This document shows positions 3,798 to 4,108 of a stretch of DNA of 9,520 bases, piece by piece (the first letter of the stretch is position 1; every line of letters begins with the position of its first letter). The DNA comes from a virus (Duplodnaviria > Heunggongvirae > Uroviricota > Caudoviricetes). The DNA is taken from IMG/VR virus record IMGVR_UViG_2711768020_000003; one strand, written 5' to 3'. The position numbers and the translations under genes were made by a program. A model generated the notes under the pieces. That model saw nothing but the letters and a program-made list of their open reading frames with translations, ran no database searches and had not been told where the DNA came from.

Positions 3798-3874
3798 GGC
3801 CCTTTAGCTCAGTTGGTCAGAGCGAGCGACTCATAATCGCCAGGTCGCTGGTTCAAGTCCAGCAAGGGCCACCA
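3798..3874 (+). tRNA. tRNA-Ile (anticodon CAU, lysidine-type, ileX/ileZ-like, decodes AUA)
   Basis: Manual cloverleaf: 7-bp acceptor stem GGCCCTT/AAGGGCC, anticodon loop CTCATAA, T-arm GGTTCAAGTCC, encoded CCA. Anticodon arm and T-arm resemble E. coli tRNA-Ile2 from memory, not elongator tRNA-Met. Confidence 0.8.
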
Positions 3875-3875
3875 A

Positions 3876-3952
3876 CCACCACTAGCTCATCCGGATAGAG
3901 CATCAACCTTCTAAGTTGACGGTGCGAGGTTCGAGTCCTCGGTGGTGGGCCA
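3876..3952 (+). tRNA. tRNA-Arg (anticodon UCU, decodes AGA/AGG)
   Basis: Manual fold: acceptor CCACCAC/GTGGTGG, D-stem GCTC/GAGC, anticodon stem TCAAC/GTTGA with loop CTTCTAA, T-stem CGAGG/CCTCG with loop TTCGAGT, discriminator G, encoded CCA. Confidence 0.82.
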
Positions 3953-3954
3953 GC

Positions 3955-4030
3955 GCCGACTTAGCTCAGCAGGCAGAGCAACTGACTTGTAATCAGTAGG
4001 TCACCAGTTCGATTCCGGTAGTCGGCACCA
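3955..4030 (+). tRNA. tRNA-Thr (anticodon UGU), thrU-like
   Basis: Manual fold: acceptor GCCGACT/AGTCGGC, anticodon stem ACTGA/TCAGT with loop CTTGTAA, T-loop TTCGATT, encoded CCA. Near-identical to host tRNA-Thr(UGU) as I recall it, with about 2 D-loop differences. Confidence 0.82.
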
Positions 4031-4033
4031 TAT

Positions 4034-4108
4034 GCGGGCATCGTATAATGGCTATTACCTCAGCCTTCCAAGCTGATGATGCGGGTTCGATTCCCGCTGC
4101 CCGCTCCA
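4034..4108 (+). tRNA. tRNA-Gly (anticodon UCC), glyT-like
   Basis: Sequence GCGGGCATCGTATAATGGCTATTACCTCAGCCTTCCAAGCTGATGATGCGGGTTCGATTCCCGCTGCCCGCTCCA folds as a canonical tRNA with anticodon loop CTTCCAA, and matches enterobacterial glyT from memory. Confidence 0.82.

What the first reader, a model, noticed from the sequence alone, without database searches (positions are those of the whole stretch)
3798..4108. Tightly packed four-tRNA array of mixed apparent origin (Ile-CAU, Arg-UCU, Thr-UGU, Gly-UCC)
Four tRNA genes are separated by only 1, 2 and 3 nt and sit behind a near-consensus promoter. The Ile(CAU) and Arg(UCU) species decode the rare AUA and AGA/AGG codons, as in Stx-phage tRNA clusters. 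The Thr(UGU) and Gly(UCC) genes look nearly identical to host thrU and glyT as I remember them, suggesting capture of part of a host tRNA operon. Possible roles are codon supplementation for late or cargo genes, or replacement of host tRNAs cleaved by anticodon-nuclease defence systems. These alternatives cannot be separated from sequence.
Basis: partly seen in the sequence, partly recalled or inferred. Interest (0 to 1): 0.5.

Follow-up and report, generated by a model that had tools for sequence, protein, structure and literature searches.

The report
Rare-codon tRNA cassette in lambdoid prophage
Four tightly packed tRNA genes in a lambda-like prophage read the codons this phage family over-uses relative to E. 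coli; this is a recurrent variant of a known phage accessory cassette, not a new kind of system.

Summary
ARAGORN and Rfam call four tRNA genes at 3798-4108: CAU (Ile2-type), UCU, UGU and UCC, with spacers of 1, 2 and 3 nt.

Origin is mixed:
- Gly matches E. coli glyT 75/75.
- Thr matches thrU 74/76; both changes are in the D-loop.
- Ile is the Stx-phage ileZ type (74/77).
- Arg sits on the Stx-phage argN scaffold (64/77) but carries UCU instead of UCG.

The array lies in a 542-bp portable module (terminator, Chi, conserved promoter, tRNAs) between the Q/antirepressor region and the lysis genes. The same array occurs in 19 of 120 sampled viral contigs. The Ile-slot2-Thr core occurs in 41 of 5,426 complete E. 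coli genomes.

Six of the seven codons most over-represented in array-bearing phages versus K-12 genes (AGG, AUA, AGA, ACA, GGA, GGG) are read by these tRNAs (P about 1e-6). Lambda has no tRNAs and shows the same skew, so the cassette is optional.

The anti-nuclease idea is disfavoured for Thr and Gly. Their anticodon arms equal the host's, including the motif P2-OLD cleaves, and published tests found thrU non-protective. It remains open for Ile and Arg.

Best reading: a rare-codon supplement, and a new member of a known kind.

The parts
3684..3712 (+). Intrinsic terminator (stem 3684-3705 plus T-run) ending the antirepressor operon. An equivalent terminator precedes sister arrays.
   Evidence: Terminator scan. 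The same architecture appears upstream of arrays in other prophages.
3698..4239 (+). Portable tRNA cassette module. It is 100% identical over 542 bp to a module in a different lambdoid prophage of E. coli FDAARGOS_944, whose flanks are unrelated.
   Evidence: H33, query 99-640, 100%. One search shows the context there: a DUF1133 Q-like gene upstream, then holin and a PBSX-type terminase downstream.
3742..3749 (+). Chi site (GCTGGTGG) between the terminator and the promoter, conserved at this place in sister cassettes.
   Evidence: There are 6 Chi sites in the window against 0.45 expected.
3759..3788 (+). Sigma-70 promoter-like element: -35 TTGCAG (3760-3765), 17-nt spacer, -10 TATTAT (3783-3788). 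It is followed by a GC-rich 9-nt stretch, TCTGCCTCC, that ends at the tRNA 5' end.
   Evidence: One search gives the 9/12 match. Alignment A1 shows TTATTAT invariant and TTGCA conserved, with a variable spacer, in window, ECMA0423, PhiR47_1, UMNK88, Stx2a_F349 and phiP27.
3798..3874 (+). tRNA-Ile2 type (anticodon CAU, expected to be converted to lysidine-AU, reading AUA). It is the ileZ type.
   Evidence: Identity is 74/77 to Stx2a ileZ and 69/77 to ileX. C4-G69 and C5-G68 match ileX and differ from metT; A27xC43 is a mismatch, as in ileZ.
3876..3952 (+). tRNA-Arg (UCU; reads AGA and AGG) on the argN scaffold. It has a C1:G72 acceptor stem, A20, G73 and anticodon stem UCAAC/GUUGA.
   Evidence: Identity is 64/77 to argN (UCG), 58/79 to argU and 46/77 to argO. 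Pair 3:70 covaries as A-U, G-C or G.U across variants.
3955..4030 (+). tRNA-Thr (UGU; reads ACA and ACG). It is thrU-like, with D-loop changes U16C and U20C only.
   Evidence: Identity is 74/76 to thrU. The anticodon arm is identical to thrU. This C16/C20 allele occurs in 22 viral contigs.
4034..4108 (+). tRNA-Gly (UCC; reads GGA and GGG), identical to host glyT.
   Evidence: Identity is 75/75 to glyT.
2157..2564 (+). Antiterminator Q gene. Q-modified RNA polymerase is expected to read through to the tRNA cassette and the late genes.
   Evidence: Pfam PF06530, E=2.7e-52. PHROG 79, Q-like.
2569..2681 (+). Late-promoter-like element (TTGACC-18-TATATT, 2569-2598) followed by isrK RNA (2605-2681), which ends in a terminator. 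This looks like the counterpart of lambda pR', 6S RNA and tR'.
   Evidence: promoter, and terminator 2660-2676. (isrK, 77.5 bits).

Best explanation
This is an accessory rare-codon tRNA cassette of a lambdoid prophage.

Shown here:
- Four intact tRNA genes lie head to tail in a 542-bp module that moves between unrelated lambdoid prophages.
- The module sits in the variable slot between the Q/antirepressor region and the lysis genes.
- The tRNAs read AUA, AGA/AGG, ACA/ACG and GGA/GGG. These include six of the seven codons most over-represented in such phages relative to E. coli core genes.

Inferred:
- In a lysogen the cassette is transcribed from its own conserved sigma-70 promoter. Its GC-rich discriminator resembles host stable-RNA promoters.
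- During lytic growth it is also transcribed by Q-modified polymerase starting at the pR'-like promoter at 2569-2598 and reading through the terminators at 2660-2681 and 3684-3712.
- The four-tRNA precursor is cut by RNase P at each 5' end. The 1-3 nt trailers are trimmed back to the encoded CCA by 3' exonucleases.
- Host enzymes then modify and charge the tRNAs. TilS makes lysidine on the CAU tRNA so that IleRS charges it.
- The extra copies raise the supply of four tRNA species that are minor in E. coli (ileX/Y, argU, thrU, glyT; established knowledge). This speeds translation of phage genes, and possibly of other horizontally acquired genes.
For: - tRNA calls and scores.
- Identity determinants: Ile2-type acceptor pairs and host-identical anticodon loops for all four tRNAs; A20, C35, U36 and G73 for Arg.
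- Unbiased codon ranking. In window + PhiR47_1 + FDAARGOS_944 prophage (21,380 codons) against 42 K-12 genes, the top within-family odds ratios are AGG 5.6, AUA 4.2, AGA 3.9, CGG 2.8, ACA 2.5, GGA 2.3 and GGG 2.1. Six of the top seven are read by the array; hypergeometric P=1.1e-6.
- Control codons CUA, GUA, UUA and AAA are not enriched.
- Functional constraint: the tRNA bodies are conserved while flanks diverge (mean 56% column identity upstream). Compensatory changes occur at Arg 3:70 and at the Gly acceptor pair (C6U with its partner, G66A in the 75-nt sequence).
- The promoter hexamers are conserved.
- The module is identical in an unrelated prophage and recurs in 19 of 120 viral contigs with the same 1/2/3 spacing.
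- An otherwise similar prophage carries an HTH gene at this position instead, so this is an accessory slot.
- The same interpretation, with an ACA bias of 17.3% against 7.1%, was published for the Thr(UGU) tRNA downstream of Q in phage SfI (PMC3636060).
Against: - Lambda has no tRNA genes and shows the same or a stronger codon skew (AGA 7.8, AGG 6.5, AUA 4.9, GGA 2.8, ACA 2.4). The cassette is therefore dispensable, and array carriers do not have higher demand.
- In this window the skew is strong in the early genes (AUA OR 6.4, ACA 5.9). It is weak or non-significant in the visible late genes HNH, TerS, TerL and portal.
- The most common sister array has Lys(UUU) in slot 2, although AAA is not rare or enriched (OR 0.8-0.9). 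Supplementation cannot explain the whole family.
- CGG is enriched but not covered by the array.
- The Ile-slot2-Thr core is found in only 41 of 5,426 complete E. coli genomes.
- There are no expression or fitness data.
Confidence: 0.65

Rival explanations
1. Counter-defence. The cassette would supply replacement tRNAs when host tRNAs are destroyed by tRNA nucleases that restrict lambdoid phages, such as P2-OLD, PARIS AriB, PrrC or colicin D. At most this could apply to the divergent Ile and Arg members.
For: - P2-OLD, the classic excluder of lambda, kills by cutting thrU and other tRNAs that have paired CNG motifs at positions 28-30 and 40-42 (PMC12445682).
- The window Arg has stem UCAAC/GUUGA and lacks both CNG motifs. 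Its relative argN has CAG/CUG. The difference is a compensatory 30:40 change.
- The phage Ile has an A27xC43 mismatch, so its stem is shorter.
- On the same scaffold, the commonest sister arrays carry Lys(UUU), the PARIS and PrrC target. These always have C33 and a stem unlike lysT (PMC11464382).
- SfI carries, at the same genomic slot, a Thr(UGU) with both published resistance hallmarks.
Against: - All four anticodon loops are identical to the host counterparts. The anticodon-loop-mutation signature of resistant phage tRNAs (PMC10264068) is therefore absent.
- The Thr and Gly anticodon arms equal thrU and glyT, including CNG/CNG.
- Published data: the anticodon arm decides OLD sensitivity, a thrU arm abolishes protection, and overexpressed thrU gives little or no protection.
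- Across about 100 phage copies the Thr arm stays thrU-like (91 copies), with no drift toward resistant forms.
- Host argU itself lacks the CNG motif. There is no evidence that it, or ileX, is a target needing replacement.
Confidence: 0.15
2. Nearly neutral passenger. The cassette hitch-hikes in the recombination-prone slot between Q and the lysis genes, with little or no selective value to phage or host.
For: - Prevalence is low (41 of 5,426 genomes).
- Lambda and an otherwise similar prophage do without it.
- Several copies in databases carry single changes at conserved tRNA positions, for example A14C, an extra G in the acceptor stem, and truncated ends.
Against: - The tRNA bodies are strongly conserved against diverged flanks.
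- Compensatory pair changes are kept.
- The promoter hexamers are conserved.
- The 1/2/3-nt spacing is invariant.
- The module spreads intact between unrelated prophages.
- The match between the tRNA set and the top enriched codons has P about 1e-6.
Confidence: 0.12
3. tRNA-dependent lysogeny. The phage would disrupt a host tRNA gene on integration and carry its own copy to complement the loss.
For: - The mechanism is established in actinobacteriophages (PMC10865867).
- Relatives of this phage (the Sf phages) integrate at a tRNA gene, thrW (PMC3636060).
Against: - The host thrU-tyrU-glyT-thrT operon is intact (at least 80% cover) in 5,421 of 5,426 complete genomes. That count exceeds what would be possible if the 41 array carriers had lost it.
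- Single genomes carry up to three arrays.
- Four different isotypes are not needed to complement one attB.
- The same module sits in prophages with different backbones.
- The integrase and att sites are not in the window.
Confidence: 0.02

Closest known systems
Stx-phage tRNA cluster ileZ-argN-argO (933W type, e.g. Stx2a_F349 AP012530; phiP27 has ileZ-argO)
   Same: - Position downstream of Q and upstream of the late and lysis genes.
- Conserved TTGCA-17-TATTAT promoter just before the first tRNA.
- First tRNA nearly the same (74/77).
- Second tRNA on the same scaffold (64/77, C1:G72 acceptor and the same T-arm).
- 1-nt Ile/slot-2 spacer.
- Reads AUA and AGA/AGG.

   Different: - The slot-2 anticodon is UCU, not UCG.
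- Its stem has lost the CAG/CUG motifs, and the discriminator is G73, not U73.
- argO is absent.
- Two host-type tRNAs (Thr, Gly) follow instead.
- No toxin genes lie downstream.

E. coli thrU-tyrU-glyT-thrT (tufB) operon
   Same: Thr is 74/76 and Gly 75/75 identical to thrU and glyT, and they are in the same order.
   Different: tyrU and thrT are absent. The spacer is 3 nt (TAT), whereas the host has 8 nt + tyrU + 116 nt between thrU and glyT. There is no similarity in leader, spacer or trailer. The phage Thr allele has C16 and C20.
P21/SfI/Sf6-type Asn(GUU)-Thr(UGU) cassette downstream of Q
   Same: Same genomic slot in closely related Shigella and E. coli lambdoid phages. Both include a Thr(UGU) tRNA. 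The published interpretation is ACA supplementation (PMC3636060).
   Different: The SfI Thr is only distantly like thrU, with a G27xA43 mismatch and no CNG motifs. It sits directly behind a terminator with no promoter of its own.
Nuclease-resistant phage tRNAs (T5 tRNA-Lys against PARIS; coliphage tRNA-Thr(UGU) against P2-OLD)
   Same: These are phage-borne copies of tRNAs with the same anticodons as host tRNAs. One anticodon (UGU) is the main P2-OLD target, and P2-OLD restricts lambdoid phages.
   Different: The defining feature is an altered anticodon stem-loop that blocks cleavage. That feature is absent from the window's Thr and Gly, and no anticodon loop differs from the host's.
Laboratory rare-codon helper plasmids (pRARE / CodonPlus type). 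This comparison rests on my own knowledge, not a tool result.
   Same: Extra copies of ileX/Y-, argU- and glyT-type tRNA genes (with thrU co-cloned in pRARE) are supplied to relieve AUA, AGA/AGG and GGA limitation in E. coli.
   Different: Those are engineered, sit on multicopy plasmids, and also supply leuW and proL. The phage cassette is natural and single-copy, and it lacks the CUA and CCC decoders. Those two codons are not enriched in these phages.

Membership tests
tRNA (Rfam RF00005) | Cloverleaf sequence and structure scoring above the curated threshold. | tested here: met
   Scores of 70.5, 56.4, 69.8 and 64.9 bits against a gathering score of 29. ARAGORN calls all four.
tRNA-Ile2 (lysidine type, ileX/ileY/ileZ) | CAU anticodon in loop CUCAUAA, plus acceptor pairs C4-G69 and C5-G68. 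These are TilS determinants per Ikeuchi et al. 2005, cited from my own knowledge. Elongator tRNA-Met has U4-A69 and A5-U68. | tested here: met
   The window acceptor is GGCCCTT/AAGGGCC, ileX is GGCCCCT/AGGGGCC and metT is GGCTACG/CGTAGCC. The loop is identical to ileX. NCBI's annotation names identical copies tRNA-Ile.
tRNA-Ile2 (lysidine type, ileX/ileY/ileZ) | C34 is actually converted to lysidine, and the tRNA is charged with Ile. | not testable with these tools
   Needs mass spectrometry or aminoacylation assays.
Stx-phage ileZ-argN-argO cluster | An ileZ-type first tRNA, downstream of Q. | tested here: met
   74/77 to Stx2a ileZ and 73/77 to phiP27 ileZ. The Q gene is at 2157-2564.
Stx-phage ileZ-argN-argO cluster | Second tRNA is argN, i.e. 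Arg(UCG). | tested here: not met
   The scaffold is the same (64/77) but the anticodon is UCU, and the 30:40 pair and discriminator differ.
Stx-phage ileZ-argN-argO cluster | An argO tRNA and stx genes downstream. | tested here: not met
   The window's Arg tRNA is only 46/77 identical to argO, and no other Arg tRNA is present. The holin, endolysin and Rz genes follow the array. Parts of that region are masked as N.
Derivative of the host thrU-tyrU-glyT-thrT operon | tRNA bodies identical or near-identical to thrU and glyT, in the same order. | tested here: met
   74/76 and 75/75.
Derivative of the host thrU-tyrU-glyT-thrT operon | Residual homology in operon leader, spacers or trailer, which would prove capture of a contiguous piece. 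| tested here: not met
   No similarity outside the mature tRNAs, and tyrU is absent.
Nuclease-resistant phage tRNA (anti-OLD / anti-PARIS type) | An anticodon stem-loop altered relative to the host target. For P2-OLD this means a changed CNG motif plus a shortened stem. | tested here: not met
   The Thr arm ACUGA/CUUGUAA/UCAGU equals thrU, with CNG/CNG present and 5 base pairs. Gly equals glyT. All four loops equal the host's. The criteria come from PMC12445682 and PMC10264068.
Nuclease-resistant phage tRNA (anti-OLD / anti-PARIS type) | The Arg and Ile members resist a nuclease that cuts host argU or ileX. | tested here: inconclusive
   The Arg lacks CNG, but so does argU. The Ile has a 27:43 mismatch. 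No nuclease is known to me that targets these two host tRNAs and restricts lambdoid phages.
tRNA-dependent lysogeny | The host tRNA gene of the same isotype is disrupted at attB. | tested here: not met
   The host operon is intact in 5,421 of 5,426 genomes. The att site itself is not in the window.

The most novel reading that the evidence does not exclude
The cassette may record an arms race with tRNA nucleases that restrict lambdoid phages, rather than being only a codon supplement. Across prophages, one phage-specific tRNA scaffold in slot 2 toggles its anticodon between UCG, UCU (this window) and UUU. The UUU form always has the highly unusual C33. The UCU and UUU forms have lost, by a compensatory 30:40 change, the CNG motifs that TOPRIM nucleases such as P2-OLD cut. 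The thrU-derived slot-3 scaffold likewise appears with UCU or UUU anticodons in other phages. On this reading the Ile and Arg tRNAs here would be nuclease-proof decoders of ANA codons. The family would then be a natural system for studying rapid tRNA identity switching.
Probability: 0.12. Interest if true: 0.6.

Novelty: new member of a known kind. Interest (0 to 1): 0.3.

Why it matters
As a rare-codon supplement, this cassette is a clean natural counterpart of the helper plasmids used in protein expression. It shows that lambdoid phages assemble such sets by joining phage-lineage tRNAs (Ile, Arg) to host-derived ones (Thr, Gly) in a portable unit that carries its own promoter.

It also gives a useful negative control for the current idea that phage tRNAs mainly serve to evade tRNA nucleases. 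Here a lambdoid phage, the classic victim of P2-OLD, carries a copy of the very tRNA that OLD destroys, in a form predicted to be just as sensitive.

The wider family (Arg/Lys/Thr anticodon switches on fixed scaffolds, and a conserved C33 in the Lys form) may deserve experimental attention. That feature lies in sister loci, not in this window.

Tried and rejected
- **Literature, Stx tRNA names.** Searches for ileZ/argN/argO returned no paper holding all three terms and only irrelevant hits when relaxed. A search for lambdoid prophages with Thr, Gly, Ile and Arg tRNAs found nothing relevant. Two Stx-phage papers had nothing on tRNA function.
- **OLD paper supplements.** The tables listing cleaved tRNAs and the 245-tRNA library are not held. 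I could not check whether Gly(UCC), Arg(UCU) or Ile(CAU) are OLD substrates, or whether a thrU-like lambdoid Thr was tested.
- **Source genome.** The Thr-Gly junction scan of species-representative genomes gave 9 loci: E. coli, S. flexneri, E. ruysiae, C. braakii and one likely contaminant. None is identical to the window.
- **Precursor folding.** Folding 3792-4254 as one RNA gave z = -0.8 and was uninformative.
- **Capture with flanks.** No flank or spacer homology to the host operon was found.
- **tRNA-dependent lysogeny.** Rejected, because the host operon is intact.
- **Cargo-gene supplementation.** Rejected for this window. No cargo gene lies between the array and the lysis genes, and the visible late genes show little skew.
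- **Promoter by consensus score alone.** Not significant: 2 found against 1.0 +/- 1.0 expected. The case rests on conservation.
- **Promoter-like match at 4022-4049** (TCGGCA-16-TATAAT, 10/12). It lies inside the Thr and Gly genes, and its TATAAT is the glyT D-arm, so I treat it as incidental.
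Full report
ARAGORN finds four + strand tRNA genes at 3798-3874 (CAU), 3876-3952 (UCU), 3955-4030 (UGU) and 4034-4108 (UCC). The spacers are 1, 2 and 3 nt, and every gene encodes CCA. Rfam's tRNA model scores them at 70.5, 56.4, 69.8 and 64.9 bits against a threshold of 29.

ARAGORN labels the first one Met, but it is Ile2-type. Its acceptor stem has C4 and C5 paired with G69 and G68, as in ileX, whereas metT has U4 and A5. 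Its anticodon loop CUCAUAA equals that of ileX. NCBI's annotation calls identical copies tRNA-Ile. That these pairs are the TilS determinants is established knowledge, not tested here.

**2. Context.** The window is the late-control region of a mosaic lambdoid prophage. Its nearest phage relatives are phiP27 for the left part and SfII, SfIV and SfI for the packaging genes. The order of features is:

| Feature | Coordinates |
|---|---|
| DnaB-type helicase | 31-1563 |
| RusA | 1817-2188 |
| Antiterminator Q | 2157-2564 |
| Promoter-like element | 2569-2598 |
| isrK RNA, ending in a terminator | 2605-2681 |
| C4 antisense RNA | 2707-2790 |
| Second promoter-like element | 2810-2838 |
| Xcc1-like RNA | 2924-3007 |
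| ORF6N-type antirepressor | to 3608 |
| Intrinsic terminator | 3684-3712 |
| The four tRNAs | 3798-4108 |
| Holin (ends 4591), endolysin (from 4591), Rz (to 5338) | partly masked by N runs at 4255-4489 and 4749-5161 |
| HNH endonuclease | 5381-5731 |
| Small terminase, large terminase, portal | 5844-9427 |

No toxin or other cargo gene lies between the array and the lysis genes.

**3. Origin of the four genes, tested by alignment to fetched references.**
- Gly is 75/75 identical to K-12 glyT.
- Thr is 74/76 identical to thrU. The two changes are U16C and U20C in the D-loop.
- Ile is 74/77 identical to the ileZ gene of an Stx2a phage, and 69/77 to ileX.
- Arg is 64/77 identical to the Stx-phage argN, against 58/79 to argU and 46/77 to argO. 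argN carries anticodon UCG; the window gene carries UCU.

So 'mixed origin' is right, with the correction that the Arg gene is an argN-lineage tRNA with a changed anticodon.

Outside the mature tRNA sequences nothing resembles the host thrU-tyrU-glyT-thrT operon. tyrU is missing, and the Thr-Gly spacer is TAT, whereas the host has 8 nt + tyrU + 116 nt. The shared order of thrU then glyT favours an operon origin. A contiguous capture cannot be shown.

**4. The cassette is a portable module.** Positions 3698-4239 are 100% identical (542/542) to a stretch in E. coli FDAARGOS_944. There it lies in a different lambdoid prophage, after a DUF1133 Q-like gene and before a class II holin and a PBSX-type terminase. 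A prophage that shares the window's helicase-to-antirepressor backbone up to 3750 carries a helix-turn-helix gene at this position, and no tRNAs. This is the accessory slot that holds stx in Stx phages and lies next to the LT-II genes in SerU-LTIIb.

**5. Upstream architecture.** In 13 of 14 arrays examined, the order is: intrinsic terminator, then usually a Chi site, then TTGCAR, a 17-nt spacer, TATTAT, and a GC-rich 9-nt stretch ending at the first tRNA. In the alignment of seven divergent contexts, TTATTAT is invariant and the -35 is conserved while the spacer varies. Mean column identity is only 56%. By consensus score alone the promoter is unremarkable: 9/12, with as many matches in shuffles. 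The evidence is therefore conservation, not closeness to consensus. The GC-rich discriminator resembles host stable-RNA promoters; that is an inference.

**6. Downstream of the array.** In the unmasked FDAARGOS_944 twin, terminator-like hairpins lie 260 and 610 nt after the Gly gene, before the holin. The equivalent region of the window is masked.

**7. How common it is.** The Ile-slot2-Thr arrangement covers at least 80% of the query in 41 of 5,426 complete E. coli genomes. Single E. coli and Shigella genomes hold up to three arrays in different prophages. In a capped sample of 120 IMG/VR contigs carrying the slot-2 scaffold, the compositions were:

| Array | Contigs |
|---|---|
| Ile-Lys(UUU)-Thr-Gly | 67 |
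| Ile-Arg(UCU)-Thr-Gly, spacers 1/2/3 (the window type) | 19 |
| Ile-Lys-Arg(UCU) | 6 |
| Ile-Arg(UCU) | 5 |
| Ile-Lys-Lys-Gly | 4 |
| Ile-Arg(UCG)-Arg(UCU) | 2 |

The window's C16/C20 Thr allele occurs in 22 contigs, close to the number with the Arg(UCU) form, and every example examined pairs the two.

**8. Evidence for functional constraint.** tRNA bodies are conserved against diverged flanks. Pair 3:70 of the Arg scaffold covaries as A-U, G-C or G.U. The Gly gene has a variant with paired C6U and G66A changes (75-nt numbering) that keeps an acceptor-stem base pair. Some database copies carry single damaging changes, so selection is not absolute.

**9. Codon supplementation test.** I used annotated genes of the window, phage PhiR47_1 and the FDAARGOS_944 prophage (21,380 codons), with 42 K-12 genes as background (14,748 codons). 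All 59 synonymous codons were ranked by within-family odds ratio. The top seven were AGG 5.6, AUA 4.2, AGA 3.9, CGG 2.8, ACA 2.5, GGA 2.3 and GGG 2.1. Six of these seven belong to the seven codons the array can read; the hypergeometric P is 1.1e-6. CUA, GUA, UUA and AAA are not enriched.

There are three caveats:
- Lambda has no tRNA genes and shows the same or a stronger skew. The skew is a trait of lambdoid phages in general, and the cassette is optional.
- Within the window the skew is carried by the early genes, not the visible late genes.
- AAA is not enriched, yet Lys(UUU) is the commonest slot-2 form elsewhere.

The SfI paper reached the same supplementation reading for its Thr(UGU), and found no explanation for its Asn tRNA (PMC3636060).

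**10. Counter-defence test.** P2-OLD, the classic excluder of lambda, kills by cutting thrU at paired CNG motifs at positions 28-30 and 40-42. Protective phage Thr tRNAs combine an altered motif with a shortened stem. The anticodon arm decides sensitivity, a thrU arm abolishes protection, and overexpressed thrU barely protects (PMC12445682).

The window's tRNAs compare as follows:
- The window Thr has the thrU arm unchanged, and Gly equals glyT. Both have CNG/CNG.
- All four anticodon loops equal the host's. The loop-mutation signature proposed for resistant phage tRNAs is therefore absent (PMC10264068).
- Across about 100 phage copies, the Thr arm remains thrU-like in 91.
- By contrast, the Thr(UGU) that SfI carries in the same genomic slot has a G27xA43 mismatch and no CNG motif.

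The anti-nuclease idea is thus disfavoured for Thr and Gly. For Arg and Ile it stays open. The Arg scaffold lost both CNG motifs relative to argN through a compensatory G30-C40 to A30-U40 change, and the Ile has an A27xC43 mismatch. But host argU also lacks the motif, and I know of no nuclease that targets argU or ileX and restricts lambdoid phages.

**11. Other rivals.** tRNA-dependent lysogeny (PMC10865867) is very unlikely, because the host thrU-glyT operon is intact in 5,421 of 5,426 genomes. A neutral-passenger reading is weakened by the conservation pattern, but it fits the low prevalence and the occasional decayed copies.

**12. Mechanism proposed.**
- Shown: gene content, arrangement, identity elements, module mobility, conserved promoter elements, and the match between the tRNA set and the phage-enriched codons.
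- Inferred: transcription from the cassette promoter in lysogens, and additionally by Q-modified polymerase from the pR'-like promoter at 2569-2598 during lytic growth. RNase P then cuts at each 5' end, 3' exonucleases trim the 1-3 nt trailers to the encoded CCA, and host enzymes modify and charge the tRNAs. The result is a larger pool of four tRNA species that are minor in E. coli.

**13. Verdict.** The feature is a recurrent, already annotated but apparently undescribed member of the known class of lambdoid tRNA cassettes downstream of Q. Interest is modest. The more unusual features are anticodon switching on fixed scaffolds and the C33 Lys form, and these lie in sister loci.

Noticed in passing
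window 2569-3608: Between Q and the tRNAs lies a P1/P7-immI-like module. It has a promoter-like site (2569-2598), c4-a1b1 target (2592-2644), isrK (2605-2681, with terminator), C4 antisense RNA (2707-2790), a second promoter-like site (2810-2838), an sRNA-Xcc1-like RNA (2924-3007) and an ORF6N/antirepressor gene (to 3608). The isrK RNA sits where lambda has its 6S RNA and tR', directly after Q.
   Followed up: partly
window 1092, 2390, 3742, 8217 (+ strand); 3402, 5506 (- strand): There are six Chi sites (GCTGGTGG) in 9.5 kb against 0.45 expected; 0 of 200 shuffles reach six. The site at 3742-3749 is conserved between the terminator and the promoter in sister cassettes with otherwise divergent sequence. 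Wild-type lambda is known to have none (my own knowledge).
   Followed up: partly
window 4255-4489 and 4749-5161: Two runs of N (235 and 413 nt) mask parts of the holin and the endolysin/Rz genes. Whether a terminator separates the tRNA array from the holin cannot be read here.
   Followed up: partly
L008 2595-2671, L011 2595-2671, and 86 IMG/VR copies (e.g. L031): In sister prophages the same slot-2 scaffold carries anticodon UUU ('tRNA-Lys'). These always have C at position 33 instead of the near-universal U33, plus discriminator U73 and a stem unlike host lysT. This is the commonest array form (Ile-Lys-Thr-Gly, 67 of 120). AAA is not a rare codon, so supplementation does not explain it.
   Followed up: partly
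L012 1122-1197 (SerU-LTIIb); L072 and 4 other IMG/VR loci: The thrU-derived scaffold also appears with changed anticodons: UCU (G35C, annotated tRNA-Arg, but lacking A20) in the LT-IIb phage, and UUU (G35U) in five viral contigs. This family shows recurrent middle-base anticodon switches among the ANA decoders.
   Followed up: partly
L026 939-1094 (phage SfI): SfI carries Asn(GUU)-Thr(UGU) in the same slot, directly behind a terminator. Its Thr has a G27xA43 mismatch and no CNG motifs, which are both published hallmarks of P2-OLD resistance. Asn(GUU) is also an OLD substrate. This cassette type looks like a better counter-defence candidate than the window's.
   Followed up: partly
L005 1595-1671 (Stx2a_F349 argN): The Stx-phage argN tRNA has a G3.U70 wobble pair, which is the major alanine identity element (my own knowledge). 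The window's version has A3-U70 and other variants have G3-C70.
   Followed up: no
L022 (423-bp contig, Corallococcus exercitus assembly): A 423-bp contig with 0.67x coverage in a myxobacterial assembly carries the enterobacterial phage Thr-Gly unit. It is almost certainly contamination.
   Followed up: no
window 4022-4049: The best consensus promoter match in the region (TCGGCA-16-TATAAT, 10/12) lies inside the Thr 3' end and the Gly 5' end. Its TATAAT is the D-arm of glyT, so it is probably incidental.
   Followed up: no
window 5381-5731: An HNH endonuclease gene lies immediately upstream of the small and large terminase genes, as in phiP27-type cos packaging modules.
   Followed up: no
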